Positions 550 to 47,762 of a stretch of 64,000 bases of DNA are shown here, piece by piece. The stretch lies in assembly GCF_003790525.1 (NCBI RefSeq), contig NZ_CP033635.1; one strand, 5' to 3'. A program made the translations under genes and the position numbers. Under the pieces are notes generated by a model that was given only the letters and a program-made list of their open reading frames with translations, was not told where the DNA came from and ran no database searches. Numbering within the stretch: position 1 is the stretch's first letter; the number at the start of each line of letters is the position of its first letter. Origin of the DNA: Escherichia coli. GTDB taxonomy: Bacteria; Pseudomonadota; Gammaproteobacteria; Enterobacterales; Enterobacteriaceae.

Positions 550-803
550 TATCTGAACGTATCATCTACAAATTAAACAAAATGGAGGGCAATTTACCAT
601 AAACCAGGTTAAGTATGGGAGATTAACGCCCTATCTACCTCTCTATTGGTGGGTTAGTGGTTGCAAACCTTACGTGCCAGTTATGTCTCTGACTGCTACT
701 CAGGCGTATTTCCTTTGTGATAATAGTCACTTTTTTTAAACAATTAAGATAACTGTAATTAACAATCATTTACTATTGCACTGTTAATTGGTGCGAGGTT
801 GTG

Positions 804-1985
804 ATGAAAGACGTTGTGATTGTCGGGGCGTTACGGACACCTATCGGCTGCTTTCGTGGTGCGTTAGCGGGTCATTCCGCTGTGGAACTTGGCAGCCTGG
901 TCGTGAAAGCGTTAATAGAACGTACCGGCGTTCCTGCATATGCGGTGGATGAAGTAATTCTTGGTCAGGTGTTGACTGCAGGGGCAGGGCAGAATCCGGC
1001 AAGGCAATCGGCTATTAAAGGTGGTCTTCCTAACAGCGTTTCTGCAATCACTATTAATGACGTTTGCGGTTCCGGGCTTAAAGCACTGCATCTGGCTACT
1101 CAGGCGATCCAGTGTGGCGAGGCGGATATTGTCATCGCCGGTGGCCAGGAAAACATGAGCCGCGCACCACACGTTCTGACTGATAGCCGCACCGGTGCAC
1201 AGCTTGGCAATAGCCAGTTGGTTGATAGTCTGGTGCATGACGGCTTGTGGGATGCCTTCAATGATTATCATATTGGTGTCACCGCCGAAAATCTGGCTCG
1301 CGAATATGGCATCAGCCGTCAGTTGCAGGATGCTTACGCACTTAGCTCGCAACAAAAAGCGCGAGCGGCGATTGACGCCGGACGATTTAAAGATGAAATC
1401 GTCCCGGTAATGACCCAAAGTAACGGTCAGGCGTTGGTTGTTGATACCGATGAACAGCCACGCACTGACGCCAGTGCAGAAGGCTTGGCCCGTTTAAATC
1501 CTTCATTTGATAGTCTCGGTTCTGTGACAGCGGGTAATGCATCATCCATAAACGATGGCGCAGCTGCGGTAATGATGATGAGCGAAGCCAAAGCGCGAGC
1601 GTTGAATTTACCCGTGCTTGCCCGCATTCGCGCATTTGCCAGCGTTGGTGTAGATCCGGCATTAATGGGAATTGCGCCGGTGTATGCGACACGCCGTTGC
1701 CTGGAACGTGTCGGCTGGCAGTTGGCTGATGTCGATCTTATTGAGGCTAATGAAGCGTTTGCTGCTCAGGCGCTTTCGGTTGGCAAGATGCTTGAATGGG
1801 ATGAGCGTCGGGTCAATGTTAATGGTGGTGCGATCGCGCTCGGTCACCCAATAGGCGCGTCCGGTTGCCGAATCCTGGTTTCTCTGGTTCATGAAATGGT
1901 GAAACGTAATGCCCGCAAAGGACTGGCTACGCTTTGTATCGGCGGGGGCCAGGGCGTGGCATTGACCATTGAACGTGACGAATAG
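804..1985 (+). CDS. yqeF: Acetyl-CoA C-acetyltransferase (thiolase II family)
   Basis: ORF track 801..1985 (394 aa, GTG then ATG at 804); thiolase motifs (NDVCGSGL active-site Cys region, C-terminal GHPIGASGCR); starts MKDVVIVGALRTPIG as K-12 YqeF. Confidence 0.9.
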   Translation: MKDVVIVGALRTPIGCFRGALAGHSAVELGSLVVKALIERTGVPAYAVDEVILGQVLTAGAGQNPARQSAIKGGLPNSVSAITINDVCGSGLKALHLATQAIQCGEADIVIAGGQENMSRAPHVLTDSRTGAQLGNSQLVDSLVHDGLWDAFNDYHIGVTAENLAREYGISRQLQDAYALSSQQKARAAIDAGRFKDEIVPVMTQSNGQALVVDTDEQPRTDASAEGLARLNPSFDSLGSVTAGNASSINDGAAAVMMMSEAKARALNLPVLARIRAFASVGVDPALMGIAPVYATRRCLERVGWQLADVDLIEANEAFAAQALSVGKMLEWDERRVNVNGGAIALGHPIGASGCRILVSLVHEMVKRNARKGLATLCIGGGQGVALTIERDE

Positions 1986-2142
1986 CTCTGCATTTCCTCC
2001 TTACCGATAAATATCAGCCGTCATTAATCTGTTGAATAATGGTGGCTGGCGAGTCGACATACATTTTCAGGGCTCCCTGATTTTTCCATTCCCATGACAT
2101 ATTCGTGATCGACACTGCACTTTTTTCAGTCTTTACCTTAAA

Positions 2143-2161
2143 AATGAAACATTGTTTTATT
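2143..2161. promoter_or_regulatory. KdgR operator-like near-palindrome upstream of kduI
   Basis: AATGAAACATTGTTTTATT fits the KdgR box pattern AATRAAAYRNYRTTTYATT as I recall it; lies about 110 bp upstream of the kduI start. Confidence 0.5.
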
Positions 2162-2271
2162 TTTAATTGAAAACCCTATCCCGTGGGCATATCATCCCCT
2201 TATAGAGAAAACGAAACAGCGTTTCACTATCGTTTTCTATTTTCACGCTTCACTGATTATCGGAGGTTGAT

Positions 2272-3108
2272 GTGGACGTAAGACAGAGCATCCACAGTGC
2301 GCATGCAAAAACGCTGGATACCCAGGGGTTGCGCAATGAATTTTTGGTTGAAAAGGTATTTGTCGCCGATGAGTACACCATGGTTTACAGCCACATTGAC
2401 CGTATTATTGTTGGCGGCATTATGCCGGTAACTAAAACGGTTTCCGTTGGCGGGGAAGTTGGTAAACAACTCGGGGTAAGCTATTTCCTGGAACGTCGCG
2501 AGTTAGGTGTTATCAATATTGGCGGTGCCGGTACGATTACCGTCGATGGTCAATGCTATGAAATCGGTCACCGCGAAGCCCTGTATGTTGGTAAAGGCGC
2601 AAAAGAAGTTGTCTTTGCCAGTATTGATACCGCTACTCCGGCGAAGTTTTATTACAATTGCGCACCTGCGCATACGACGTATCCCACCAAAAAAGTCACA
2701 CCAGACGAAGTATCTCCAGTCACGTTAGGCGATAACCTCACCAGTAACCGTCGCACGATTAACAAATATTTTGTCCCGGATGTGCTGGAAACCTGCCAAT
2801 TGAGTATGGGGCTGACGGAGCTGGCTCCAGGTAACTTGTGGAACACCATGCCGTGTCACACCCACGAGCGCCGGATGGAAGTTTATTTCTATTTCAATAT
2901 GGATGATGACGCCTGCGTTTTCCACATGATGGGGCAGCCGCAAGAAACGCGTCATATTGTGATGCATAACGAGCAGGCGGTGATCTCCCCGAGCTGGTCG
3001 ATCCATTCCGGCGTCGGAACCAAAGCTTATACCTTTATCTGGGGCATGGTCGGTGAAAACCAGGTTTTTGATGATATGGACCATGTGGCCGTTAAAGATT
3101 TGCGCTAG
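2272..3108 (+). CDS. kduI: 5-dehydro-4-deoxy-D-glucuronate isomerase
   Basis: 278-aa ORF starting [20 protein letters not shown] (GTG start); matches K-12 KduI; followed 29 bp later by kduD. Confidence 0.9.
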
Positions 3109-3137
3109 TTGTGGGCATAAACGAATAAGGTATTGTT

Positions 3138-3899
3138 ATGATTTTAAGTGCATTTTCTCTCGAAGGTAAAGTTGCGGTCGTCACTGGTTGTGATACTGGG
3201 CTGGGCCAGGGGATGGCGTTGGGGCTGGCGCAAGCGGGCTGTGACATTGTTGGCATTAACATCGTTGAACCGACTGAAACCATCAAGCAGGTCACGGCGC
3301 TGGGGCGTCGTTTTTTAAGCCTGACCGCCGATCTGCGAAAGATTGATGGCATTCCAGCACTGCTGGATCGCGCGGTAGCGGAGTTTGGTCATATTGATAT
3401 CCTGGTGAATAACGCCGGATTGATTCGCCGCGAAGACGCTCTCGAGTTCAGCGAAAAAGACTGGGACGATGTCATGAACCTGAATATCAAGAGCGTATTC
3501 TTCATGTCTCAGGCAGCGGCGAAACACTTTATCGCGCAAGGCAATGGCGGCAAGATTATCAATATCGCGTCAATGCTCTCCTTCCAGGGCGGGATCCGTG
3601 TGCCTTCTTATACCGCATCAAAAAGCGGCGTGATGGGCGTGACGCGATTGATGGCGAATGAATGGGCTAAACACAACATTAATGTTAATGCGATAGCTCC
3701 GGGTTACATGGCGACCAACAATACTCAACAACTACGGGCAGATGAACAACGTAGCGCGGAAATTCTCGACCGCATTCCAGCTGGCCGTTGGGGACTGCCG
3801 AGTGACCTGATGGGGCCGGTAGTGTTTCTTGCCTCCAGTGCTTCAGATTATGTGAATGGTTATACCATTGCCGTGGATGGCGGTTGGCTGGCTCGTTAA
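3138..3899 (+). CDS. kduD: 2-dehydro-3-deoxy-D-gluconate 5-dehydrogenase (SDR family)
   Basis: 253-aa ORF with SDR Rossmann motif (VTGCDTGLG) and catalytic YTASK; matches K-12 KduD. Confidence 0.9.
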   Translation: MILSAFSLEGKVAVVTGCDTGLGQGMALGLAQAGCDIVGINIVEPTETIKQVTALGRRFLSLTADLRKIDGIPALLDRAVAEFGHIDILVNNAGLIRREDALEFSEKDWDDVMNLNIKSVFFMSQAAAKHFIAQGNGGKIINIASMLSFQGGIRVPSYTASKSGVMGVTRLMANEWAKHNINVNAIAPGYMATNNTQQLRADEQRSAEILDRIPAGRWGLPSDLMGPVVFLASSASDYVNGYTIAVDGGWLAR

Positions 3900-3920
3900 T
3901 CCATTCTTCTTACTTTTATG

Positions 3921-3946
3921 ACCCTGCCGCATGGCAGGGTTTTTTA
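3921..3946 (+). terminator. Intrinsic terminator after kduD
   Basis: Hairpin ACCCTGCC-gcatg-GGCAGGGT followed by a T-run, 22 bp after the kduD stop. Confidence 0.6.
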
Positions 3947-4213
3947 TACCTGTAGATCATCATAATCCATATCATGGTTATGAAATAATCCATATCAATT
4001 ATCAATTAATGAACTTTATGAATTTTATCTGCTTTAAAATTAGTTGGTTAATAATAATCTCAATAATTCAACTTAATTTGAAAATTGGAATATCCATCAC
4101 ATAACGACATGTCGCAGCAATTTAATCCATATTTATGCTATTTCCGACCTGACACCTGTGTGAATTGTTCACGTATTTTTTCACTATGTCTTACTCTCTG
4201 CTGGCAGGAAAAA

Positions 4214-5632
4214 ATGGTTACTATCAATACGGAATCTGCTTTAACGCCACGTTCTTTGCGGGATACGCGGCGTATGAATATGTTTGTTTCGGTAGCTGCT
4301 GCGGTCGCAGGATTGTTATTTGGTCTTGATATCGGCGTAATCGCCGGAGCGTTGCCGTTCATTACCGATCACTTTGTACTGACCAGTCGTTTGCAGGAAT
4401 GGGTGGTCAGTAGCATGATGCTCGGCGCAGCAATTGGTGCGCTGTTTAATGGTTGGCTGTCGTTCCGCCTGGGGCGTAAATACAGCCTGATGGCGGGGGC
4501 CATCCTGTTTGTACTCGGTTCGATAGGGTCCGCTTTTGCGACCAGCGTAGAGATGTTAATCGCCGCTCGTGTGGTGTTGGGCATTGCTGTCGGGATCGCG
4601 TCTTACACCGCTCCTCTGTATCTTTCTGAAATGGCAAGTGAAAACGTTCGCGGTAAGATGATCAGCATGTACCAGTTGATGGTCACTCTCGGCATCGTGC
4701 TGGCGTTTTTATCCGATACAGCGTTCAGTTATAGCGGTAACTGGCGCGCAATGTTGGGGGTTCTTGCTTTACCAGCAGTTCTGCTGATTATTCTGGTGGT
4801 CTTCCTGCCAAATAGCCCGCGCTGGCTGGCGGAAAAGGGGCGTCATATTGAGGCGGAAGAAGTATTGCGTATGCTGCGCGATACGTCGGAAAAAGCGCGA
4901 GAAGAACTCAACGAAATTCGTGAAAGCCTGAAGTTAAAACAGGGCGGTTGGGCACTGTTTAAGATCAACCGTAACGTCCGTCGTGCTGTGTTTCTCGGTA
5001 TGTTGTTGCAGGCGATGCAGCAGTTTACCGGTATGAACATCATCATGTACTACGCGCCGCGTATCTTCAAAATGGCGGGCTTTACGACCACAGAACAACA
5101 GATGATTGCGACTCTGGTCGTGGGGCTGACCTTTATGTTCGCCACCTTCATTGCGGTCTTTACGGTAGATAAAGCAGGGCGTAAACCGGCTCTGAAAATT
5201 GGTTTCAGCGTGATGGCGTTAGGCACTCTGGTGCTGGGTTACTGCCTGATGCAGTTTGATAACGGTACGGCTTCCAGTGGCTTGTCCTGGCTCTCTGTTG
5301 GCATGACGATGATGTGTATTGCCGGTTATGCGATGAGCGCCGCGCCAGTGGTGTGGATCCTGTGCTCTGAGATTCAGCCGCTGAAATGCCGCGATTTTGG
5401 CATCACCTGTTCGACGACGACAAACTGGGTGTCGAATATGATTATCGGCGCGACCTTCCTGACACTGCTTGATAGCATTGGCGCTGCCGGTACGTTCTGG
5501 CTCTACACTGCGTTGAACATTGCGTTTGTGGGCATTACTTTCTGGCTCATTCCGGAAACCAAAAATGTCACGCTGGAACATATCGAGCGCAAACTGATGG
5601 CAGGCGAAAAGTTGAGAAATATCGGCGTCTGA
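4214..5632 (+). CDS. araE: Arabinose:H+ symporter (MFS sugar porter)
   Basis: ORF 4085..5632; the true start is most likely the internal ATG at 4214 ([15 protein letters not shown]..., the K-12 AraE N-terminus); the upstream 43 codons are an in-frame extension. Confidence 0.9.
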
Positions 5633-5638
5633 TTTCAC

Positions 5639-5671
5639 GGGCCGGATGTGCTGTACATCCGGCCCTTTTTT
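5639..5671 (+). terminator. Intrinsic terminator after araE
   Basis: GGGCCGGATG-tgctgta-CATCCGGCCC followed by TTTTTT, immediately after the araE stop. Confidence 0.7.
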
Positions 5672-5760
5672 CGTTAATAGAGATTAGGCACCTGGCCGTT
5701 GAGGCGTTTGTCTCGTTCCTTATTCAGCCTTGTTGCGGTAACACACATCAGGAGAGAGGA

Positions 5761-6337
5761 ATGAAAACAATTGGTTTGCTGGGAGGAATGAGCTGGGAAT
5801 CCACTATTCCTTACTATCGTCTGATAAATGAAGGCATTAAACAGCGGCTTGGTGGGCTTCACTCTGCGCAAGTGCTGCTACATAGCGTCGATTTTCATGA
5901 AATAGAAGAGTGCCAGCGTCGCGGTGAGTGGGACAAAACCGGGGATATTCTGGCTGAGGCGGCGCTTGGCTTACAGCGGGCGGGCGCAGAAGGCATTGTG
6001 TTATGTACCAATACGATGCACAAAGTGGCGGATGCCATTGAGTCTCGTTGCTCTCTGCCTTTCTTACATATAGCGGATGCCACTGGACGTGCAATTACCG
6101 GGGCAGGAATGACTCGTGTGGCGCTGCTGGGTACGCGTTACACCATGGAACAGGATTTTTATCGCGGGCGGCTGACGGAACAATTTTCCATCAACTGTCT
6201 TATTCCTGAAGCGGATGAACGGGCGAAAATTAATCAGATTATTTTTGAAGAACTGTGTCTGGGGCAATTTACCGAAGCGTCACGCGCTTATTATGCGCAA
6301 GTGATTGCTCGCCTTGCAGAACAGGGCGCACAGGGCG
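5761..6337 (+). pseudogene. ygeA: ygeA (Asp/Glu-racemase family amino-acid racemase), 5' fragment interrupted by IS4
   Basis: ORF 5761..6354 reads [21 protein letters not shown]... up to ...AEQGAQG, then enters the IS4 left end where the last four codons and stop are IS-derived; the native continuation ([11 protein letters not shown]...) resumes after the element. Confidence 0.85.
6326..6337. repeat. 12-bp target-site duplication, left copy (GCGCACAGGGCG)
   Basis: Identical 12-mer directly abuts both ends of the IS4 element (6326-6337 and 7764-7775). Confidence 0.85.
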
Positions 6338-7763
6338 TAATGCCGATCAGTTAAGGATCAGTTGACCGATCCAGTGGCTGTGTAAGAATCCGGAAACGCT
6401 CACTTGTTTCCGGATTTTTTTATGCACATTGGACAGGCTCTTGATCTGGTATCCCGTTACGATTCTCTGCGTAACCCACTGACTTCTCTGGGGGATTACC
6501 TCGACCCCGAACTCATCTCTCGTTGCCTTGCCGAATCAGGTACTGTAACGCTACGCAAGCGCCGTCTTCCCCTCGAAATGATGGTCTGGTGTATTGTTGG
6601 CATGGCGCTTGAGCGTAAAGAACCTCTTCACCAGATTGTGAATCGCCTGGACATCATGCTGCCGGGCAATCGCCCCTTCGTTGCCCCCAGTGCCGTTATT
6701 CAGGCCCGCCAGCGCCTGGGAAGTGAGGCTGTCCGCCGCGTGTTCACGAAAACAGCGCAGCTCTGGCATAACGCCACGCCGCATCCGCACTGGTGCGGCC
6801 TGACCCTGCTGGCCATCGATGGTGTGTTCTGGCGCACACCGGATACACCAGAGAACGATGCAGCCTTCCCCCGCCAGACACATGCCGGGAACCCGGCGCT
6901 CTACCCGCAGGTCAAAATGGTCTGCCAGATGGAACTGACCAGCCATCTGCTGACGGCTGCAGCCTTCGGCACGATGAAGAACAGCGAAAATGAGCTTGCT
7001 GAGCAACTTATAGAACAAACCGGCGATAACACTCTGACGTTAATGGATAAAGGTTATTACTCACTGGGACTGTTAAATGCCTGGAGCCTGGCGGGAGAAC
7101 ACCGCCACTGGATGATACCTCTCAGAAAGGGAGCGCAATATGAAGAGATCAGAAAACTGGGTAAAGGCGATCATCTGGTGAAGCTGAAAACCAGCCCGCA
7201 GGCACGAAAAAAGTGGCCGGGACTGGGAAATGAAGTGACAGCCCGCCTGCTGACCGTGACGCGCAAAGGAAAAGTCTGCCATCTGCTGACGTCGATGACG
7301 GACGCCATGCGCTTCCCCGGAGGAGAAATGGCGGAACTGTACAGTCATCGCTGGGAAATCGAACTGGGATACAGGGAGATAAAACAGACGATGCAACTGA
7401 GCAGGCTGACGCTGAGAAGTAAAAAACCGGAGCTTGTGGAGCAAGAGCTGTGGGGTGTCTTACTGGCTTATAATCTGGTGAGATATCAGATGATTAAAAT
7501 GGCGGAACATCTGAAAGGTTACTGGCCGAATCAACTGAGTTTCTCAGAATCATGCGGAATGGTGATGAGAATGCTGATGACATTGCAGGGCGCTTCACCG
7601 GGACGTATACCGGAGCTGATGCGCGATCTTGCAAGTATGGGACAACTTGTGAAATTACCGACAAGAAGGGAAAGGGCCTTCCCGAGAGTGGTAAAGGAGA
7701 GGCCCTGGAAATACCCCACAGCCCCGAAAAAGAGCCAGTCAGTTGCTTAACTGACTGGCATTA
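6338..7763 (+). mobile_element. Insertion sequence IS4, complete copy (1426 bp)
   Basis: 18-bp terminal inverted repeats TAATGCCGATCAGTTAAG (6338-6355) and the reverse complement of CTTAACTGACTGGCATTA (7746-7763), one mismatch between them; single transposase ORF; flanked by a 12-bp direct repeat; length equals the known IS4 size. Confidence 0.9.
6422..7750 (+). CDS. insG: IS4 transposase (DDE family)
   Basis: 442-aa ORF from the ATG at 6422 ([19 protein letters not shown]...); the ORF track starts 18 bp earlier at a TTG. Confidence 0.9.
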
Positions 7764-7775
7764 GCGCACAGGGCG
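7764..7775. repeat. 12-bp target-site duplication, right copy (GCGCACAGGGCG)
   Basis: See left copy. Confidence 0.85.
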
Positions 7776-7891
7776 TCATTTTTGGCTGCACAGAAATTGG
7801 TTTACTGGTGCCAGAAGAGCGCAGTGTTCTGCCTGTGTTTGATACCGCGGCGATCCATGCCGAGGATGCTGTCGCTTTTATGCTGTCGTAG
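7764..7891 (+). pseudogene. ygeA: ygeA 3' fragment downstream of IS4
   Basis: In-frame continuation ...[41 protein letters not shown] ending at TAG 7889-7891; overlaps the convergent lysR 3' end. Confidence 0.8.
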
Positions 7892-8813
7892 CTGACGACA
7901 AAATAGCGTCAAGAGAAGTGACCAGTTTCGGTAATCCCGCTTGTAAATGCTCACTAAACGCCTGCACCAGCGCTGATGACGGGCGGTGCAGGGGGCGGAT
8001 CAGGCTGACAGTGAACGGAACCGCAATGCTGAACCGCCGCACCACTAAACCGCTTGCCGCATAATCCAGTGCGGTGAGTGGGTTAACTACCGAAACGCCT
8101 ACCCCCGCCCGTACCATTGCGCAGACTGACGCGGCGCTGTGGGTTTCTACGATCATGCGTCGTTTAACCTGATTCTCAGTAAACAATTGATCCAGGAACT
8201 GGCGATAGCTGTCAGTACGGGAAAGGCTGATGTAGTTTTCACCGTGAAAATCATCCGGCGTTAATACCTTTTTTACCGCCAGCGGATGGCCCGGAGGTAA
8301 CACACACACTTCATCTAAAGAGAGTAATTCGGTACGTTCTGTTCCCGCAGGCGTATGGAGTGTCTCAGTGAGTCCTAAATCATGACGCTGGGCCGAGAGC
8401 CACTCTTCAAGTAGCGGTGATTCCTGGGGCACGATGTTTAAGCTGACATCGGGATAACGTGCCAGAAAGGGTTGCAGGAGCTGCGGTAAAAAAGATTGCG
8501 AAAAGACCGGCAGGCAGGCAATAGACAGTTCTCCCTGGCGAAACTCGCGCAGACTTTCTGCGGCACTGACAATGCGATCCAGTCCGTACCAGGATCGTTG
8601 CACTTCTTCAAACAGACGCAGTCCTTGCACGGTAGGATGTAATCGTCCACGTATGCGCTCAAACAATTTCAGCCCGATAACCTTCTCAAAGCGCGCCAGT
8701 TCGCGGCTGACGGTTGGCTGTGAGGTGTGTAGCAGGTGTGCCGCCTCAGTCAGGCTTCCGGCGGTCATTACCGCATGAAAAATTTCAATATGACGTAAGT
8801 TAACGGCGGCCAT
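7878..8813 (-). CDS. lysR: LysR transcriptional activator of lysA
   Basis: 311-aa [31 protein letters not shown]... with N-terminal HTH; divergent from lysA. Confidence 0.9.
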
Positions 8814-40645: not shown

Positions 40646-41899
40646 ATGTCAGGATCCAACACTGCAATCAGCCGTCGTCGTTTACTGCAAGGCGCGGGTG
40701 CCATGTGGCTATTGAGCGTAAGTCAGGTCAGCCTGGCTGCGGTCAGCCAGGTCGTGGCGGTGCGCGTCTGGCCTGCGTCCAGCTACACCCGCGTGACGGT
40801 AGAATCTAATCGTCAGCTGAAATATAAGCAGTTCGCGTTGAGTAATCCTGAACGCGTGGTGGTGGATATCGAAGATGTAAACCTGAACTCGGTGCTCAAG
40901 GGGATGGCTGCGCAAATCCGCGCTGACGACCCGTTCATCAAGTCGGCGCGCGTCGGGCAATTTGACCCGCAAACCGTACGTATGGTTTTTGAATTAAAGC
41001 AAAACGTAAAACCGCAGCTGTTTGCCCTTGCGCCGGTCGCCGGGTTTAAAGAGCGTCTGGTGATGGATCTCTATCCTGCCAATGCACAGGATATGCAGGA
41101 CCCGCTGCTGGCGCTGCTGGAGGATTACAACAAAGGCGACCTCGAAAAGCAGGTGCCGCCAGCACAAAGTGGTCCACAACCGGGTAAAGCTGGGCGGGAT
41201 CGTCCGATTGTCATTATGCTTGACCCTGGTCACGGTGGCGAAGACTCCGGTGCGGTGGGGAAATACAAAACACGCGAAAAAGACGTAGTATTGCAAATAG
41301 CTCGCCGTCTGCGCTCTCTGATCGAGAAAGAGGGCAATATGAAGGTGTACATGACGCGCAATGAAGACATCTTCATTCCGTTGCAAGTGCGCGTAGCAAA
41401 AGCCCAGAAACAGCGTGCTGACTTGTTTGTCTCTATCCATGCCGACGCCTTTACCAGTCGCCAGCCGAGCGGTTCCTCGGTGTTTGCGCTCTCAACCAAA
41501 GGCGCAACCAGTACTGCGGCAAAATATCTGGCACAAACCCAGAACGCCTCGGACTTGATTGGTGGCGTAAGCAAAAGCGGTGACCGCTATGTCGACCACA
41601 CTATGTTCGATATGGTGCAGTCGCTGACCATTGCTGACAGCCTGAAGTTTGGTAAAGCGGTGCTGAATAAGCTCGGTAAAATCAACAAGCTGCATAAAAA
41701 TCAAGTTGAACAGGCCGGGTTTGCCGTACTAAAGGCACCAGATATTCCCTCCATTCTGGTCGAAACGGCGTTTATCAGTAACGTTGAGGAAGAGCGTAAA
41801 CTGAAAACGGCGACTTTCCAGCAGGAAGTTGCGGAGTCTATTCTTGCGGGAATTAAAGCGTATTTTGCCGATGGGGCGACGCTGGCGAGAAGGGGATAA
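40646..41899 (+). CDS. amiC: N-acetylmuramoyl-L-alanine amidase AmiC (Tat-exported)
   Basis: Internal ATG at 40646 gives [23 protein letters not shown] (twin-arginine signal); amidase_3 C-terminal domain. Confidence 0.9.
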
Positions 41900-42070
41900 T
41901 GTTTTTATTTATTCAATGAATTTATATTTCGTTGAATAGATAACATTTACCTGAATATTAGACGCTGGTTTTGTGACTGATGTCGGATATTTGAATGTCG
42001 GCTTGAAAAATAAGCCGACCATCTCTTTAATTAAGCACAATTCCGTGTAATGTATACGCATTAGTTAATC

Positions 42071-42145
42071 ATCTTGTAACTGTTAAATCAGGCAAGGCAA
42101 TGTTTGAAGTAATCATTACTTCTGACGTGCCTTGCCTTTTTTTTT
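42071..42145 (+). promoter_or_regulatory. RAT-like element overlapping an intrinsic terminator in the leader of the islet antiterminator gene
   Basis: CTTGTAACTGTTAAATCAGGCAAGGC resembles BglG/SacY-type RAT sequences (TTGTTACTG...CAGGCAAAACC); it overlaps the 5' arm of an extended hairpin (GGCAAGGCA 42091-42099 / TGCCTTGCC 42128-42136, with inner GAAGTAAT/ATTACTTC pairing) followed by nine Ts; GGAG lies about 8 bp before the ATG at 42157. Confidence 0.55.
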
Positions 42146-42156
42146 GGAGCCATGAA

Positions 42157-42981
42157 ATGATCATCGAAAAAGTCATGAACAATAATTGTGTACAGGCATC
42201 GATGAATGGACAGGAGGTTATCATTTCTGGGCCTGGCGTCGGTTACAACAAAAAATATGGAATGTCGGTCCCTGAGCATCCGGCTAACCGGATTTTTTAT
42301 GTCAGAAATGAACAAAAAAATAAACTCTACAAATTGATTGAACATGTGGATATTGAGTATGTTTTTGTTGCCGAAAAAATAGTGCAATATGCGGAGAACA
42401 ATCTCGAAAAAAATCTCAATCCATCGCTACTATTGATTCTTGCTGATCACATTTCGAATGCAATATCCCGAGTCGCTTCAGGCATACAAATTAATAATGT
42501 TTTCCTTGATGAAATCAAAGCGTTGTACAAAGCAGAGTATGCGATAAGTCGCGATGCATTAACTATCATTAATGAGCAATTCAGCGTTCAACTTCCTGAT
42601 GATGAGATTGGTTTTATAGCATTGCATATTTTAAATAATTATGAAAATTCAGTTGATTATGAATCAGTACGGATTATTGAGTTGTCGCAAATAATCACGG
42701 GGCTTATTGAAGTTGTTTATAACAGAAAGGTGGACAGAAGTTCATTTAATTATTCCAGGTTCATGATACACCTTAAATATTTTTCAAGTCGCGTATTATG
42801 TAATGAAAAGATAAAACAAAAAGATATTGGTGACATCTATGAGCAGTTTCTTGAGAAAGACATCCTGTTACAGCGCGCAATTCATGAAATTGAACGGTAT
42901 CTGTATGCCACTTTTAAATATGAATTAATTTTAGAAGAAAAACTATATCTCTCAATTCGTACCAAAGTATTAATGGACTAA
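42157..42981 (+). CDS. BglG/LicT-family PRD-containing transcription antiterminator
   Basis: ORF track 42100..42981; start taken at the ATG at 42157; N-terminal CAT-like region (IEKVMNNNCVQASMNGQEVIISGPGVGY) and PRD regions with conserved His contexts (LPDDEIGFIALHIL, RFMIHLKYFSSRV) resembling BglG (LPKDEVGFIAMHL, RLVTHLKFLSWRI). Confidence 0.8.
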   Translation: MIIEKVMNNNCVQASMNGQEVIISGPGVGYNKKYGMSVPEHPANRIFYVRNEQKNKLYKLIEHVDIEYVFVAEKIVQYAENNLEKNLNPSLLLILADHISNAISRVASGIQINNVFLDEIKALYKAEYAISRDALTIINEQFSVQLPDDEIGFIALHILNNYENSVDYESVRIIELSQIITGLIEVVYNRKVDRSSFNYSRFMIHLKYFSSRVLCNEKIKQKDIGDIYEQFLEKDILLQRAIHEIERYLYATFKYELILEEKLYLSIRTKVLMD

Positions 42982-43012
42982 TTATATATAACATTTATAT
43001 GAGATAACCCAC

Positions 43013-44593
43013 ATGAAACAAAAGAAAGCCTGGAGTTTTTTTCAGAGCCTGGGAAAGGCATTCATGTATCCCATTGCTCTGCTAAGTGTATGTGGCATGA
43101 TGCTAGGGCTGGGAAGTGGTTTAGCCAGTGATGATATGGCAAAGTTAATTCCATTTCTGGCTATTCCAATAATTAAAACCATACTTGATTTCATTGTTAG
43201 TCTTGGTTTGTTTGCCTTTGTTAATTTACCTGTATTGTTTGCGATAGCGATTCCCTTAGGATTATTAAAAGATAAAGAGGATAAAGCCTATGGTGCTTTT
43301 TCTGGCTTAATTGGTTTTATGGCGATGCATCTGGGAACGAACTTTTATCTTAAACAGCACGACTTATTGGTCGCTGCTGACCAAATGTCGACACATGGGC
43401 AAACCATCATTCTGGGGATCCAGTCCTACAATACCAGCGTGTTAGGGGGAATTGTTGCTGGGTTATTAGTCGCCAGCATGTATAAAAAGATCGTTAATTT
43501 ACGCATTCCTGAATCATTAGGTTTTTATAGCGGCCCACGTCTGGTGCCTATCATTACACTGATTGTGATGAGTGGATTTGGTCTGATCATCCCTTTTATC
43601 TGGCCGCCGTTTTTCAATCTTTTCATGCTCATTGGCCACTGGATTTCAACTTCCGGTCCTGTTGGCTATTTTTTCTATGCAGTCGCCGAACGCGTGACGA
43701 TACCTTTTGGTTTAAATCACCTGGTGACGTCAGTTTTCCGCTTTACCCCCATCGGCGGATCGGCAGTGATCGGCGGCGAAGAGTATTATGGCACCCTGAA
43801 CATGTTTATGGCGTACGTCAAAGAGAATGCGGTCATTCCGCTGGATTTGGCGGGGAAAATGGAACAGGGCAAACTGATGATTCAGTATGGTCTGGCTGGT
43901 GCCGCGCTGGCGATGTATCGCACTGCTCATGCTCAAAACAGAAAAGCTATCAAAGCATTGCTTATTTCCGGGGTGCTTACAGTCATTATTGGCGGCGTCA
44001 GCGAACCGATTGAGTTTCTGTTCTTATTTGTCAGTCCACTGCTGTTTGTCTTCCATGCATTTATGAATGGATTCGCCAACATGGTCTTGCCATATATGGG
44101 CGTGAAGATGGGATTTACTGGCGATCTGATTCAATTTATTAGCTTTGGCGTATTGCGTGGCACAAGAACAGGTTGGCCAATAGCGGTGTGTGTCGAAGTG
44201 GCCTATTTCTTTATTTATTACTTTGTGTTCCGTTGGACTATTCTCAAATTTAACCTGATGACGGTAGGCCGTGAAGAGTCCAGTCCTGTCACGCTGAACG
44301 CTCATGAGGATACGGCTATAGCGGATATCCCAACTCCTGATAAATCAGAGCTGCAAGCGGCGGAGCAGATGGTTAAGGCACTTGGTGGTAAAGAGAATAT
44401 TAAGTCACTGGATAATTGCGTAACTCGTTTACGTTTAACAATCGCAGATATGGGATTGCTTGACGAGGCTGCAATAAAAAGAGCCGGCGGAATTGCGGTT
44501 GTTAAACTTGATCAAAATACCCTACAAGTCATTATCGGTACTAAAGTCATCGCCTTGCGTCGGGATATGGATAACTACATGGGGATATGCTGA
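43013..44593 (+). CDS. PTS glucose-family EIICB component, MalX-like
   Basis: 526-aa polytopic ORF with C-terminal EIIB motif NCVTRLR; collinear similarity to K-12 MalX (SYDLGKAFMYPIALLS vs FQQLGKTFMLPVALLS; EPIEFLFLFVSP vs EPLEFLFLFVAP). Confidence 0.85.
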   Translation: MKQKKAWSFFQSLGKAFMYPIALLSVCGMMLGLGSGLASDDMAKLIPFLAIPIIKTILDFIVSLGLFAFVNLPVLFAIAIPLGLLKDKEDKAYGAFSGLIGFMAMHLGTNFYLKQHDLLVAADQMSTHGQTIILGIQSYNTSVLGGIVAGLLVASMYKKIVNLRIPESLGFYSGPRLVPIITLIVMSGFGLIIPFIWPPFFNLFMLIGHWISTSGPVGYFFYAVAERVTIPFGLNHLVTSVFRFTPIGGSAVIGGEEYYGTLNMFMAYVKENAVIPLDLAGKMEQGKLMIQYGLAGAALAMYRTAHAQNRKAIKALLISGVLTVIIGGVSEPIEFLFLFVSPLLFVFHAFMNGFANMVLPYMGVKMGFTGDLIQFISFGVLRGTRTGWPIAVCVEVAYFFIYYFVFRWTILKFNLMTVGREESSPVTLNAHEDTAIADIPTPDKSELQAAEQMVKALGGKENIKSLDNCVTRLRLTIADMGLLDEAAIKRAGGIAVVKLDQNTLQVIIGTKVIALRRDMDNYMGIC

Positions 44594-45768
44594 TGGATGT
44601 TTTTAATACTCCTATTTCCCGCAAAGGAACATATTGTACCCAATGGGACTTTTGCGAGGACAGATTTGGTGTAAAAGATGTATTACCATTCTCTATTTCA
44701 GATATGGATCTTCCGATACCAGACGCTATCACCAGAGCATTAAAAAAACGTCTGGAACACCCGATTTTAGGGTACAGCCGTTGGCAGCATGATGACTATC
44801 TGAATGCGATAGTCAATTGGTATCATCAACAATATAAAACTGAAATCAAACCAGAATGGATCACCTATAGCCCAAGCGTGATGTACTCCATTGCTAAAGC
44901 AATAGAGTTATTGACATCGCATGGTGATAATATTCTCGTTTTTACACCTGTCTATAATGCATTTTTTGATATAATTAAACATAGCGAGAGAAATATTCTG
45001 ACAGCCTCTTTGATTATAAAAAATGAGGGGGGCTACGCTATCAATTGGCAAGATTTTGATCTTAAGATTCAAAGCGCAAAGATGGTGTTATTATGTAATC
45101 CTCATAACCCGACAGGAACAGTCTGGTCGGAAGAAGAACTGCATAAAATCGCTGCAAGCTGTACAAGGCATAATGTCTGGTTATGTTCAGATGAAATCCA
45201 TAGTGATTTTGTTTTTAATCGTAGCTTTACATCCGCGCTTAAAATAAAAAAAGAAAAAGTAGTAGTATTTAACTCGATATCGAAAACATTTAATGTTCCT
45301 GCACTAACAGGATCGTATATGATTTCAACTGACGATAATTTTAATCATAAGTTCAGAACGATATCGAGGTATCGCGATTTTGTAAACTCCCCATCAGTAC
45401 TGAATATAATTGCAACTATTATTGCCTATAACGAATGTGAGGGATGGTTAAAGTCATTAAAGGCACATATTGCCTCTAACATTCAATTCACCCAGCAGTA
45501 TCTGAACGAAAACACTCCAGAATTGATCGTAAGGCCAGCTGATGGTTGCTATTTTTCGTGGATAGATTGCTCTGCTATTGGTTATCCCTTTGATGAATTC
45601 TACAGTCGATTAATTCATGAAGGCAAAGTGGGCATTATGGCGGGGAATGTCTATGGAACGGAGGGGGAGGGCTACCTTCGTCTGAACCTGGCCTGCGGTC
45701 GAGAAAAATTATATATGGGGCTTACGCGTCTTGCGAGTGTAATTAAAAATATTAATCAAGGAAAATAA
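44587..45768 (+). CDS. PLP-dependent C-S lyase / aminotransferase class I-II, MalY-like
   Basis: 393-aa ORF overlapping the PTS stop; GTYCTQWDF vs MalY GTWCTQWDY; PLP-lysine context SISKTFNVPALTG vs MalY SGSKSFNIPALTG. Confidence 0.85.
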   Translation: MLMDVFNTPISRKGTYCTQWDFCEDRFGVKDVLPFSISDMDLPIPDAITRALKKRLEHPILGYSRWQHDDYLNAIVNWYHQQYKTEIKPEWITYSPSVMYSIAKAIELLTSHGDNILVFTPVYNAFFDIIKHSERNILTASLIIKNEGGYAINWQDFDLKIQSAKMVLLCNPHNPTGTVWSEEELHKIAASCTRHNVWLCSDEIHSDFVFNRSFTSALKIKKEKVVVFNSISKTFNVPALTGSYMISTDDNFNHKFRTISRYRDFVNSPSVLNIIATIIAYNECEGWLKSLKAHIASNIQFTQQYLNENTPELIVRPADGCYFSWIDCSAIGYPFDEFYSRLIHEGKVGIMAGNVYGTEGEGYLRLNLACGREKLYMGLTRLASVIKNINQGK

Positions 45769-45770
45769 AA

Positions 45771-46367
45771 ATGAACAGCACGGATCTTATCCATCTCATT
45801 AAACATTTTATGCGTAACGAACATAAAGCAGTTGAAGAAGTTATTGATTCCCCCCTTTCGGAGGTCGCAAATTTAATTAAAGTATTACAGTCTTGTCAGG
45901 GGAAAGTTGTTTTTATTGGTGTCGGTAAGTCCGGTATTATTGCCCGAAAACTCGCCGCAACATTTGCCAGCACTGGAACTCCCTCGTTTTTTGTTCACGG
46001 TACGGAAGCGGTACACGGCGACCTTGGAATGGTGGCGAAAGACGATGTTGTTATTCTTATTTCAAACAGTGGTGAGACGGCGGAAATCCTGGCGACACTG
46101 CCTAGTCTGAAAAAAATGGGTAATTATTTGATCTCTTTTACACGCAGTCATCACTCATCGCTTGCGATAAGTTGTGATTTATCCGTTGAAATTCCCGTAA
46201 AAAGTGAGGCGGATAATTTAGGTTTAGCGCCGTCATGCTCATCAACAGTCGTTCTGGTTGTTGGTGATGCGGTGGCGCTTGCGCTCTCCGAATTGAAAAA
46301 GTTTACTCGTGCTGATTTCGGCTTATATCATCCAGGAGGTGCGCTCGGTATTAAAGCAAACTCATAA
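45771..46367 (+). CDS. SIS-domain sugar-phosphate isomerase (KdsD/GutQ-like, no CBS domains)
   Basis: 198-aa ORF; GVGKSGIIARKLAATFASTGTPSFFVH and LISNSGETAEIL closely resemble the SIS core of arabinose-5-phosphate isomerases. Confidence 0.75.
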   Translation: MNSTDLIHLIKHFMRNEHKAVEEVIDSPLSEVANLIKVLQSCQGKVVFIGVGKSGIIARKLAATFASTGTPSFFVHGTEAVHGDLGMVAKDDVVILISNSGETAEILATLPSLKKMGNYLISFTRSHHSSLAISCDLSVEIPVKSEADNLGLAPSCSSTVVLVVGDAVALALSELKKFTRADFGLYHPGGALGIKANS

Positions 46368-46429
46368 TTTCAAAATATAAATACAGTAACCGGTCACGCC
46401 ATCTTTTGGGGTGGCGTTCTTTGAAGTGA

Positions 46430-47386
46430 GTGTCAGCTATGAAAAATGTTCTGGTCACCGTCCCCAGCTTTTCAGCACGCTGTGTTTCCGCCAGCAAGTT
46501 GCTAAGAGAGAATAATTTTAATCTTATTATTAAGAATAATGTGGAGCATCTGCTTAAATCAGAATCCACTGCATTACGAGAATCTATTTGCGCGGTCATC
46601 GCCGGAAAAGATTGTTATCAGGCGGACACGCTATCATTGCTGTCTGGTGTGAAAATAATATCGAGATTCGGGACGGGGATAGACAATATTGATCTTCGTG
46701 CGGCACAGCAATCCGGTATTGTTGTCAATAATGCGGTTGGGATTAATTCAAATGCGGTTGCGGAATTTATCATTGGACTTATCTTCGCGAGCATGAGAAA
46801 TATCCCCGGTAGCTATCATGCGATGCAAAATGGTTATTGGGGCGAGTCGCATGGCTGCGAGTTACAAGGTAAACGTATTGGCCTGCTTGGCTACGGCAAT
46901 ATTGGCAAAACACTGGCGAAAAGGTTATCTGGTTTTGATGTTGAGCTTTTAGCTTTTGACAAACAACCCGATTTCCAGGCCGCAGGCAAAGATGGAGTTC
47001 AGTTCGTATCAATTGAAGATATCTTTATGCAGTCTCATGTCATCATCGTTCTTTTGCCATTTTCTCCGGAGCTGGAGAACTTCATTAGTCATAAATATTT
47101 GTCGATGATGCGCAATGGTGCTCTGATCATCAACGCCGCAAGGGGAAAGTTGCTGGATGAGGGTGCTTTACTTCAGGTAATTGAAGAACGAAATGTTTTT
47201 GCAGCACTGGATGTGTTTAGCTCTGAACCGCTAGCGCAATTTAGCCCATTGCTACATGCCAAGAATATCATTACAACGCCGCATATTGCGGCCGCCACCG
47301 TTGAGTCATACCAGCAAACCGGGATATACGTTGCCCAGTCGATAATTGATTACTTCGCAGGAAGGGAGATAAAAAACGTGCTGTGA
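46430..47386 (+). CDS. D-isomer-specific 2-hydroxyacid dehydrogenase family protein (NAD-binding)
   Basis: 318-aa ORF with dinucleotide-binding motif GLLGYGNIGKTLAKRL and family-typical C-terminal TPHIAAAT. Confidence 0.75.
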   Translation: MSAMKNVLVTVPSFSARCVSASKLLRENNFNLIIKNNVEHLLKSESTALRESICAVIAGKDCYQADTLSLLSGVKIISRFGTGIDNIDLRAAQQSGIVVNNAVGINSNAVAEFIIGLIFASMRNIPGSYHAMQNGYWGESHGCELQGKRIGLLGYGNIGKTLAKRLSGFDVELLAFDKQPDFQAAGKDGVQFVSIEDIFMQSHVIIVLLPFSPELENFISHKYLSMMRNGALIINAARGKLLDEGALLQVIEERNVFAALDVFSSEPLAQFSPLLHAKNIITTPHIAAATVESYQQTGIYVAQSIIDYFAGREIKNVL

Positions 47387-47411
47387 GTTCAGCTAAGGAA
47401 TATTTCAGGTA

Positions 47412-47445
47412 CAAAAAAACCGCAATTTGTGAAACACATTGCGGT
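47412..47445 (-). terminator. Intrinsic terminator of the metZWV tRNA operon
   Basis: On the minus strand, hairpin ACCGCAAT/ATTGCGGT followed by a U-run, immediately 3' of the last tRNA copy. Confidence 0.5.
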
Positions 47446-47464
47446 TTATCAGCATCATAAGTGT

Positions 47465-47541
<77 letters not shown>

Positions 47542-47575
47542 TCACCGTACTGCTTTTACTTCATCAAATTTTGAT

Positions 47576-47652
<77 letters not shown>

Positions 47653-47685
47653 TCACCGTACTGCTTTACTTCATCAAATTTTAAT

Positions 47686-47762
<77 letters not shown>

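What the first reader, a model, noticed from the sequence alone, without database searches (positions are those of the whole stretch)
43013..45768. Second MalX/MalY-like gene pair with translational coupling
Seen in sequence: the islet PTS and C-S lyase proteins are collinear with K-12 MalX and MalY and share conserved blocks; the lyase start overlaps the PTS stop (ATGCTGATG...TGA). Established knowledge: K-12 MalY is both a beta-C-S lyase and a binding inhibitor of the MalT activator. Inference: a MalY paralog could add C-S lyase (cystathionase-like) capacity or interfere with maltose-regulon control; alternatively the pair handles a sulfur- or amino-containing glycoside.
Basis: partly seen in the sequence, partly recalled or inferred. 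Interest (0 to 1): 0.4.

Follow-up and report, generated by a model that had tools for sequence, protein, structure and literature searches.

The report
Known accessory PTS–lyase sugar operon
The two genes are the transporter and the PLP-dependent lyase of an already described, horizontally acquired five-gene sugar-uptake operon of E. coli (CFT073 c3405-c3410); it is only a distant cousin of malXY, its substrate is still unknown, and it very probably does not control the maltose regulon.

Summary
ORFs 43013-44593 (PTS EIICB, 526 aa) and 44593-45768 (PLP lyase, 391 aa) align end to end with K-12 MalX (42% identity) and MalY (36%). The lyase start overlaps the PTS stop.

The pair is not free-standing. 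It is the middle of a 5.6-kb low-GC islet (41898-47462) inserted between amiC and the tRNA-Met genes. The islet order is RAT/terminator leader, BglG/LicT-type antiterminator, EIICB, lyase, SIS-only arabinose-5-phosphate isomerase, then a phosphoglycerate-dehydrogenase-like enzyme. This is the published CFT073 c3405-c3410 cluster. It occurs in 1688 of 5426 complete E. coli genomes, whereas malXY itself is core.

Its true orthologue is the C. difficile CD3027-CD3031 operon (PTS 68% identity, lyase 49%). The order antiterminator-EIICB-lyase-SIS was kept in all 13 loci recovered from other genomes.

The lyase keeps the PLP lysine and other invariant MalY-family residues. None of the eight MalY residues that contact MalT is identical, so interference with the mal regulon is unlikely.

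The substrate remains unknown. No glycosidase is present, so I infer that the lyase removes an amino-acid moiety from a PTS-phosphorylated sugar conjugate.

Verdict: already known locus, modest interest.

The parts
41898..47462 (.). Whole islet. It replaces the 73-bp amiC-metV spacer of K-12. GC is 33-44% against 50.6% for the window.
   Evidence: Boundary walk against K-12; composition; annotation of identical DNA in strain XDL.
42074..42098 (+). RAT-like antiterminator target (TTGTAACTGTTAAATCAGGCAAGGC). Its 3' half is the 5' arm of the terminator.
   Evidence: Sequence; small hairpin. It is conserved with 0-3 mismatches upstream of the orthologous operons, with a compensatory G>A / C>T pair in Enterobacter and Enterococcus. 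The resemblance to the sacB/bgl RAT consensus is from memory.
42090..42146 (+). Intrinsic terminator in the leader: hairpin 42090-42137 followed by a run of nine U.
   Evidence: MFE -28.8 kcal/mol, z -4.81, 0 of 200 shuffles as good. In the alignment, 8 of 19 pairs show two-sided compensatory changes.
42157..42981 (+). BglG/LicT-type transcription antiterminator, 274 aa (the ORF list starts it at 42100, inside the terminator).
   Evidence: NCBIfam LicT 225 bits, GlcT 178 bits. Pfam CAT_RBD + PRD on the Citrobacter orthologue. RefSeq start. Invariant H98, H157 and H205 across 8 orthologues.
43013..44593 (+). PTS EIICB of the glucose family, MalX-like subfamily, 526 aa. It has no EIIA domain.
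   Evidence: 42% identity to MalX. TIGR02004 scores 538.8, below its cut-off of 632.2. 68% identity to C. difficile CD3030. EIIB motif DNCVTRLR with C469. Best solved relative is PtsG.
44593..45768 (+). MalY/PatB-family PLP-dependent lyase, 391 aa. Its start overlaps the PTS stop by 1 nt.
   Evidence: 36% identity to MalY. TIGR04350 scores 368.8, above its cut-off of 340. PDB best hits are MalY 1D2F and 4DGT. Catalytic residues invariant. Start codon.
45771..46367 (+). SIS-only sugar-phosphate isomerase, 198 aa, starting 2 nt after the lyase stop. It equals CFT073 c3406, a characterised arabinose-5-phosphate isomerase lacking CBS domains.
   Evidence: 194 of 198 residues identical to PDB 5UQI/5VHU. 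It matches KdsD positions 36-201 of 328. The Mosberg et al. 2011 title is seen in reference lists.
46439..47386 (+). Short D-2-hydroxyacid dehydrogenase resembling phosphoglycerate dehydrogenase, 315 aa. It is present only in the Escherichia/Citrobacter/Atlantibacter form of the operon.
   Evidence: NCBIfam PGDH scores 211.7, below its cut-off of 454. PDB best hit is 1WWK, followed by PHGDH catalytic domains. Distribution.
47465..47762 (-). Three tRNA-Met genes (metV/W/Z) forming the right border of the islet.
   Evidence: ARAGORN; Rfam.

Best explanation
The two genes are the uptake and first-processing steps of a self-contained, horizontally acquired PTS operon. It is the CFT073 c3405-c3410 cluster and the orthologue of C. 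difficile CD3027-CD3031. It is not a duplicate of malXY.

Shown here:
- A leader carries a RAT-like element overlapping a strong terminator.
- It is followed by a LicT/BglG-type antiterminator gene and then EIICB, lyase and SIS isomerase genes joined by stop/start overlaps or 2-nt gaps.
- In enterobacteria a 2-hydroxyacid dehydrogenase gene follows.

Inferred mechanism:
- Without substrate, the phosphorylated EIIB keeps the antiterminator inactive and transcription stops at 42146.
- With substrate, the antiterminator binds the RAT and the operon is read through.
- EIICB takes its phosphoryl group from the general EIIA-Glc (Crr), because no EIIA is encoded here. Firmicute versions carry their own EIIA-Glc gene.
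- EIICB imports and phosphorylates a glucose-family sugar derivative.
- The operon encodes no phospho-glycosidase, and MalY-like lyases recur next to PTS transporters and aminopeptidases. The lyase therefore most likely performs a PLP-dependent alpha,beta-elimination on an amino-acid moiety (Cys-S- or Ser-O-linked) of the phosphorylated substrate. This would release pyruvate, ammonia and a phosphosugar.
- The SIS enzyme has known in vitro arabinose-5-P/ribulose-5-P isomerase activity. It would convert the phosphosugar to a ketose phosphate for central metabolism.
- The dehydrogenase would handle a 2-oxo/2-hydroxy acid product.
- The lyase does not act on MalT.
For: Identity of the locus:
- The DNA is 100% identical to E. 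coli SMS-3-5, with the five genes between amiC and tRNA-Met.
- The literature places c3405-c3410 in all four UPEC genomes compared there, in E2348 and in SMS-3-5.
- The same five proteins are listed as GR19 of BEN2908, with 36.27% identity to MalY and 41.02% to MalX.
- The SIS protein is 98% identical to PDB 5UQI.

Orthology:
- PTS, lyase and SIS are 68%, 49% and 52% identical to the C. difficile operon. The PTS and lyase are only 42% and 36% identical to malXY.
- All 13 loci found through the PTS alone keep the order antiterminator-EIICB-lyase-SIS. They come from Escherichia, Atlantibacter, Citrobacter, Enterobacter, Clostridioides, Clostridium, Terrisporobacter, Massilicoli and Enterococcus.
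- A metagenomic Clostridium locus has the same order.
- Flanking genes are unrelated housekeeping genes.

Regulation:
- Terminator and RAT, with covariation.
- Invariant PRD histidines.

Functionality:
- dN/dS is 0.02-0.14 for all five genes between E. coli alleles.
- Catalytic residues are invariant.

Link between lyase and PTS:
- Other MalY-like lyases sit next to different PTS families together with M42, M24 or M20 peptidases.
- Another sits next to EIICB plus an RpiR-type regulator.
- L. sakei malY also lies in a PTS cluster.

No MalT role: 0 of 8 interface residues are identical.
Against: - No substrate is known for any member, including K-12 MalX/MalY.
- MalX-type transporters carry glucose or maltose when over-expressed. 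That would need no lyase.
- The only demonstrated activities of family lyases are on free amino acids (cystathionine, cysteine, racemisation).
- An arabinose-5-phosphate product is hard to derive from a hexose-type PTS substrate.
- The dehydrogenase is absent from the Enterobacter and Firmicute versions, so it is not part of the core chemistry.
- The promoter scan found no convincing sigma-70 site upstream of the leader.
- The dependence on Crr and the PRD phosphorylation logic are inferred from the family, not tested.
Confidence: 0.6

Rival explanations
1. The genes share an operon but not a substrate. On this view the EIICB is simply an extra glucose/maltose-type transporter. The lyase would be a general cysteine desulfhydrase/cystathionase feeding sulfur and pyruvate metabolism, co-expressed with sugar uptake.
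For: - The family name and best profile are maltose/glucose EIICB.
- C. difficile MalY is reported to be a cysteine desulfhydrase in vitro, and the operon is strongly induced in biofilm together with other sugar PTS genes.
- E. coli MalY is known as a cystathionase (established knowledge; reference seen).
Against: - The strict conservation of the EIICB-lyase-SIS order, with start/stop overlaps, across two phyla is hard to explain without a shared pathway.
- The PTS score lies below the malX family cut-offs.
- MalY-like lyases are also linked to PTS of other families and to peptidases.
Confidence: 0.2
2. One reading: the MalY paralogue moonlights as a binding inhibitor of MalT, or of another regulator, and so rewires maltose-regulon control in islet-bearing strains.
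For: It has the same fold family as MalY and is collinear with it at 36% identity. MalY shows that an active lyase can also be a repressor.
Against: - None of the eight MalT-contacting residues is identical. Seven changes are non-conservative, with charge reversals at N219K, A221K and E185H.
- These positions vary freely among orthologues.
- Orthologues occur in Firmicutes.
- A Vibrio MalY with two interface changes already fails to repress.
Confidence: 0.05
3. The operon is mainly a source or sensor of arabinose-5-phosphate. This could serve as a regulatory signal, or as extra supply for KDO or capsule synthesis in extraintestinal pathogens. The PTS and lyase would be accessory.
For: - c3406 is a bona fide A5P isomerase (titles; structure).
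- A regulatory role has been hypothesised for the Gram-positive enzyme.
- From memory: GutQ is a precedent for an A5P isomerase inside a PTS operon.
Against: - Firmicutes with the operon make no KDO.
- E. coli already has KdsD and GutQ.
- This reading does not explain the invariant coupling to a PLP lyase.
Confidence: 0.1

Closest known systems
E. coli CFT073 c3405-c3410 cluster of PAI-CFT073-metV (GR19 of APEC BEN2908)
   Same: - Same five genes, same order and same chromosomal site (amiC / tRNA-Met).
- Proteins are 96-99% identical to the UTI89 allele of the same cluster.
- The SIS protein is 98% identical to the crystallised protein 5UQI.
- The cluster is reported as present in SMS-3-5.
   Different: In the window the islet abuts the tRNA-Met genes directly. 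In UTI89 a type VI secretion island lies beside it. The window allele (25 genomes at 99% or more) differs by 3-9% in DNA from the two commoner alleles.
Clostridioides difficile CD3027-CD3031 operon (antiterminator, malX, malY, phosphosugar isomerase, EIIA-Glc)
   Same: Same order antiterminator-EIICB-lyase-SIS. Identities are PTS 68%, lyase 49%, SIS 52% and antiterminator 36%. It has RAT-like elements and an overlapping PTS stop and lyase start.
   Different: - It has its own EIIA-Glc gene and no dehydrogenase.
- The RAT/terminator units lie between the antiterminator and the PTS gene, in four tandem copies. In E. coli there is one copy upstream of the antiterminator gene.
E. coli K-12 malI-malXY
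   Same: An EIICB of the same subfamily followed by a MalY/PatB lyase, collinear over the full length. The substrate is likewise unknown.
   Different: - Identity is only 42% and 36%.
- It is controlled by a LacI-type repressor (MalI) instead of an antiterminator.
- It has no SIS isomerase and no dehydrogenase.
- A 9-nt gap replaces the start/stop overlap.
- It is a core gene pair.
- MalY carries the MalT-binding patch that the paralogue lacks.
BglG/SacY/LicT RAT-terminator antitermination systems
   Same: A CAT RNA-binding domain plus two PRDs, conserved PRD histidines, and a RAT hairpin overlapping an intrinsic terminator next to the cognate PTS gene.
   Different: All equivalog scores are below cut-off (LicT 225 < 300, BglG 105 < 322). 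The partner PTS is glucose/MalX-type rather than beta-glucoside or sucrose type.
KdsD/GutQ arabinose-5-phosphate isomerases
   Same: The SIS catalytic domain aligns with KdsD residues 36-201 (197 bits). In vitro A5P isomerase activity is published for c3406.
   Different: It lacks the C-terminal CBS pair (198 aa against 328 aa) and scores below the equivalog cut-offs. Its operon partners are a PTS transporter and a lyase, not LPS or glucitol genes.

Membership tests
MalX-type PTS EIICB (TIGR02004 / PRK10110) | EIIC membrane domain followed by an EIIB-Glc domain with the phosphorylatable cysteine, and no EIIA domain | tested here: met
   The profile match spans residues 6-521. EIIB_glc covers 412-509. 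The motif LDNCVTRLRL contains C469. Pfam PTS_EIIC + PTS_EIIB are recorded on orthologues.
MalX-type PTS EIICB (TIGR02004 / PRK10110) | Score at or above the curated family cut-off | tested here: not met
   538.8 bits against a cut-off of 632.2, and 525.5 against 665. RefSeq names it only 'PTS transporter subunit EIIC'.
MalX-type PTS EIICB (TIGR02004 / PRK10110) | Transport and phosphorylation of glucose or maltose | not testable with these tools
   Needs uptake assays.
MalY/PatB C-S lyase (TIGR04350) | Score above the curated cut-off over the full length | tested here: met
   368.8 bits against a cut-off of 340, residues 6-386 of 393. Best solved relatives are MalY 1D2F and 4DGT, both with E about 6e-85.
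MalY/PatB C-S lyase (TIGR04350) | PLP Schiff-base lysine and the conserved fold-type I active-site residues | tested here: met
   K231 aligns with MalY K233. D200, H203, Y121, Y61, N172 and R363 are invariant in 17 sequences.
MalY/PatB C-S lyase (TIGR04350) | Beta C-S lyase (cystathionase / cysteine desulfhydrase) activity | not testable with these tools
   The activity is reported only for K-12 MalY and, in vitro, for C. difficile MalY.
MalY as repressor of MalT | MalT-binding surface patch (A84, C181, D182, E185, S218, N219, A221, R222) | tested here: not met
   The paralogue has E, E, E, H, L, K, K, K at these positions, so 0 of 8 are identical.
BglG/LicT antiterminator system | CAT RNA-binding domain plus two PRDs with conserved histidines | tested here: met
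   The LicT profile matches positions 1-269 of 273. CAT_RBD + PRD are recorded on orthologues. H98, H157 and H205 are invariant.
BglG/LicT antiterminator system | RAT element overlapping an intrinsic terminator in the leader | tested here: met
   RAT at 42074-42098 overlaps the hairpin at 42090-42137, which is followed by U9. Covariation in orthologues. No Rfam family matches it.
BglG/LicT antiterminator system | Substrate-dependent read-through controlled by the cognate EIIB | not testable with these tools
   Needs reporter fusions.
c3405-c3410 islet of extraintestinal pathogenic E. coli | The same five genes in the same order between amiC and the tRNA-Met genes | tested here: met
   literature.
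KdsD/GutQ arabinose-5-phosphate isomerase | SIS domain plus a tandem CBS pair | tested here: not met
   Only the SIS part is present (198 aa, matching KdsD positions 36-201 of 328). This is the published peculiarity of c3406.

The most novel reading that the evidence does not exclude
The MalY-like lyase, rather than a phospho-glycosidase, may be the step that frees the sugar. On this reading the operon, and by extension K-12 malXY and other PTS-lyase-peptidase clusters, would catabolise glyco-amino acids. These would be Ser-O- or Cys-S-linked sugars left over from host or microbial glycopeptides. The steps would be PTS phosphorylation, PLP-dependent beta-elimination of the amino-acid aglycone, and then isomerisation of the released phosphosugar. 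That would finally give MalX/MalY a substrate class. It could also explain the reported urinary-tract fitness contribution of c3405-c3410 (from memory; the paper is not held).
Probability: 0.15. Interest if true: 0.7.

Novelty: already known. Interest (0 to 1): 0.25.

Why it matters
The locus is carried by about a third of sequenced E. coli (1688 of 5426 genomes), including the uropathogens UTI89 and CFT073. The same four-gene core occurs in C. difficile and other gut Firmicutes. One enzyme has been solved and characterised, yet nobody knows what the transporter imports or what the lyase cleaves. The same question has hung over K-12 malXY since 1991.

The useful outcomes here are these:
- The pair should be read as part of a conserved antiterminator-EIICB-lyase-SIS module orthologous to CD3027-CD3031.
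- Cross-talk with MalT can be set aside.
- The absence of any glycosidase, together with the recurrent PTS-lyase-peptidase linkage, points to sugar-amino-acid conjugates as candidate substrates.

As a genome-scan finding it is ordinary and already annotated.

Tried and rejected
- **Papers not held.** Lloyd et al. 2009 (PMC2681901) and Mosberg et al. 2011 (PMC3133213) are not in the library. Only their titles, seen in reference lists, and my memory could be used.
- **Literature searches.** Searches for c3405-c3410 and for a PTS/C-S-lyase substrate gave no functional assignment.
- **Narrow genome scan.** The genome-contig scan used only two exact peptide patterns and returned 13 loci. The 13-of-13 synteny therefore comes from a small sample biased towards close PTS relatives.
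- **Flanking genes.** In the Enterobacter, Enterococcus and Massilicoli loci they were housekeeping genes (nfo, fruA/fruK, dnaB/dnaI, pyrG) and gave no substrate hint.
- **RNA and promoter scans.** Rfam has no model matching the RAT. The promoter scan gave fewer hits than shuffles and none on the + strand upstream of the leader.
- **Discarded dN/dS value.** The value for the antiterminator against UTI89 (0.73) is an artefact of a 12-nt start difference in my coordinates.
- **Discarded sequence.** P0021 (62% identity) looks like an assembly chimera and was ignored.
- **Alternative chemistries considered.** Retro-aldol or decarboxylation-dependent transamination of an amino-sugar acid 6-phosphate could yield arabinose-5-phosphate directly. 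This is attractive on paper, but no family precedent or genomic evidence was found.
- **Not attempted.** I did not try structure prediction, because the tools return no coordinates with which to inspect the pocket.
Full report
**What is there**

The window is E. coli DNA, 100% identical over the tested 5.5 kb to strain SMS-3-5. The two ORFs named in the finding exist as stated. They are 43013-44593 (526 aa) and 44587/44593-45768 (393/391 aa).

I took MalX and MalY from the MG1655 record. The first protein aligns with MalX over residues 7-523 at 42% identity (E 5e-143). The second aligns with MalY over residues 4-387 at 36% identity (E 1e-96). The similarity is highly significant, but far too low for a misplaced malXY. 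malXY itself is found in 5423 of 5426 complete E. coli genomes, so this is a real second pair.

**Start codon and coupling**

The sequence ATGCTGATG spans the PTS stop (TGA, 44591-44593). The upstream ATG at 44587 is replaced by ATA, ACG or AAG in UTI89, E. coli E69, Citrobacter MGH106 and E. whittamii. The ATG at 44593 is conserved in all the Escherichia, Citrobacter and Atlantibacter loci examined. It has GGGGA 7 nt upstream and is the RefSeq start.

A stop/start overlap of 1, 4, 8 or 14 nt between the PTS and lyase genes occurs in 16 of 19 operon-type loci. K-12 malX and malY are separated by 9 nt. The lyase and the next gene are likewise separated by 2 nt or overlap by 1-32 nt in most loci. 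Translational coupling is therefore a reasonable inference, though it is not tested.

**The pair is part of a five-gene islet**

Annotation of identical DNA, NCBIfam profiles and the K-12 comparison agree. Positions 41898-47462 replace the 73-bp amiC-metV spacer of K-12. The islet contains, in order:
- a 257-bp leader;
- a BglG/LicT-type antiterminator (42157-42981);
- the EIICB;
- the lyase;
- a 198-aa SIS-only isomerase (45771-46367);
- a 315-aa phosphoglycerate-dehydrogenase-like 2-hydroxyacid dehydrogenase (46439-47386).

The three tRNA-Met genes follow. GC content is 33-44% against 50.6% for the window, which indicates horizontal origin.

PTS-lyase-SIS DNA is present in 1688 of 5426 complete E. 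coli genomes. It falls into three allele classes (99% or more, 95-99% and 90-95% nucleotide identity). All three examined examples lie at the same site. All five genes are under purifying selection between alleles, with dN/dS of 0.02-0.14. The lyase is the fastest evolving.

**Regulation**

The leader carries TTGTAACTGTTAAATCAGGCAAGGC (42074-42098). This forms a small imperfect hairpin. Its 3' half is the 5' arm of a strong hairpin (42090-42137) followed by nine U (-28.8 kcal/mol, z -4.8).

The element recurs upstream of the orthologous operons with 0-3 mismatches. In Enterobacter and Enterococcus a G>A change is matched by a C>T change that keeps the pair. The terminator stem shows two-sided compensatory changes in 8 of 19 pairs.

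Across eight orthologues the antiterminator keeps three invariant histidines, H98, H157 and H205. From memory, these correspond to the PRD phosphorylation sites of LicT. This is the classic RAT/terminator design of the bgl, sac and lic systems. Rfam has no model for it.

**It is already in the literature**

- Bryant et al. list c3405-c3410 ('PTS system, maltose/glucose specific') as a block inside PAI-CFT073-metV. They found it retained in all four UPEC genomes they compared, in E2348 and in SMS-3-5.
- A 2026 paper on strain BEN2908 lists the same five ORFs as GR19. It reports 36.27% identity to MalY, 41.02% to MalX, 52.43% to KdsD, 32% to SerA and 30% to BglG.
- The SIS protein is identical at 194 of 198 residues to PDB 5UQI/5VHU.
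- From memory, since the papers are not held: that work concerns c3406. Lloyd et al. 2009 attributed a urinary-tract fitness defect to deletion of c3405-c3410.

**True orthologues**

The closest non-enterobacterial relatives of the lyase are clostridial, at about 49-50% identity. The C. difficile locus has the order antiterminator-EIICB-lyase-SIS-EIIA. These are CD3031-CD3027, annotated malX and malY. Identities to the window proteins are 36%, 68%, 49% and 52% for the antiterminator, PTS, lyase and SIS.

A scan of one genome per species using the PTS alone gave 13 loci. They came from Escherichia, E. whittamii, Atlantibacter, Citrobacter, Enterobacter, Clostridioides, Clostridium, Terrisporobacter, Massilicoli and Enterococcus. 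Every one has antiterminator-EIICB-lyase-SIS in the same order.

The dehydrogenase is confined to the Escherichia, Citrobacter and Atlantibacter form. An EIIA-Glc gene accompanies most of the Firmicute loci. In Citrobacter the cassette sits at a different chromosomal site. In the other taxa the flanking genes are unrelated housekeeping genes. In C. difficile the operon also lies in a variable region. The unit of inheritance is therefore a mobile four-gene core, not a MalX/MalY pair.

**MalT question**

The cryo-EM study of MalT-MalY names the contacting MalY residues as A84, C181, D182, E185, S218, N219, A221 and R222. It also notes that a Vibrio MalY with D182C and S218V cannot repress.

In the paralogue these positions are E, E, E, H, L, K, K, K, and they vary freely among orthologues. 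By contrast the Schiff-base lysine (K231) and Y61, Y121, N172, D200, H203 and R363 are invariant. The protein passes the PatB C-S-lyase cut-off. An active lyase without the MalT patch is the best reading.

**What it does**

This part is inference. The operon encodes a transporter/kinase, a PLP lyase and an aldose-ketose isomerase, but no phospho-glycosidase.

Other MalY-like lyases at 42-48% identity lie in comparable settings:
- next to PTS transporters of other families together with M42, M24 or M20 aminopeptidases;
- next to an EIICB and an RpiR-type regulator;
- in a PTS cluster, in the case of L. sakei malY.

The recurring theme is a PTS transporter together with enzymes that act on amino acids or peptides. 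I therefore favour uptake and phosphorylation of a sugar carrying an amino-acid moiety. The lyase would then remove that moiety by beta-elimination, giving pyruvate, ammonia and a phosphosugar. The SIS enzyme would isomerise the phosphosugar. The enterobacterial dehydrogenase, whose nearest solved relatives are short phosphoglycerate dehydrogenases, would process a 2-oxo/2-hydroxy acid.

There are several weak points:
- The only proven activities are on free amino acids and on arabinose-5-phosphate.
- A pentose phosphate is not an obvious product of a hexose-type PTS substrate.
- MalX-type transporters can carry glucose or maltose.

The main rival is therefore co-expression without a shared substrate. 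A regulatory or A5P-supply role, as hypothesised for the Gram-positive isomerase, cannot be excluded.

**Verdict**

- The locus is already known and annotated, and one of its enzymes is solved and characterised. As a scan finding it is of modest interest.
- The open and testable question is the substrate of the conserved antiterminator-EIICB-lyase-SIS module.

Noticed in passing
L006 5994-6400 (C. difficile, between CD3031 and CD3030): Four tandem copies, about 104 nt apart, of a RAT-like element plus downstream hairpin lie between the antiterminator and PTS genes. The C. difficile loci L015 and L017 show three such RAT hits in the same fuzzy search, and L016 shows two. E. coli has a single copy upstream of the antiterminator gene.
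   Followed up: partly
L023 (Granulicatella) 2138-8277; L025 (Clostridium intestinale) 1-7179: MalY-like lyases at 43-48% identity sit in operons with PTS components of other families, PRD/Mga-type regulators and M42, M24 or M20 aminopeptidases. This suggests a wider and unexplained PTS-peptidase-lyase theme.
   Followed up: partly
L008 6081-7289 and L010 (91% E. coli allele); proteins P0003, P0005, P0009: In the divergent E. coli allele the lyase ORF is 402 aa and overlaps the SIS gene by 32 nt. Rare database entries of 550-592 aa fuse the lyase and SIS domains. This is probably a frameshift in the A-rich junction GGAAAATAAAAATG (window 45760-45773).
   Followed up: no
window 42157-47386 versus L008: Synonymous divergence between E. 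coli islet alleles (dS 0.23-0.48) is two to four times that of the flanking core gene amiC (0.13). The lyase is 86% identical in protein while its neighbours are 97-98%. This could reflect old allelic lineages or separate acquisitions at the same site.
   Followed up: partly
window 46396-46417: A short hairpin (ACGCCA ... TGGCGT) followed by TCTTTG lies in the 71-nt gap between the SIS and dehydrogenase genes. It may be an internal attenuator or a transcript-processing site.
   Followed up: no
L009 9176-12355 (UTI89): In UTI89 the islet is followed by type VI secretion genes (VasL-domain protein, tssE, tssJ, tssG) rather than directly by the tRNA-Met genes. The metabolic islet and the T6SS island are therefore separable modules at one hotspot.
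   Followed up: no
window 41997-42019: The hairpin GTCGGCTTGAAAAATAAGCCGAC lies just downstream of amiC, inside the islet. The K-12 amiC terminator is replaced along with the spacer, and amiC ends in TAA here against TGA in K-12.
   Followed up: no
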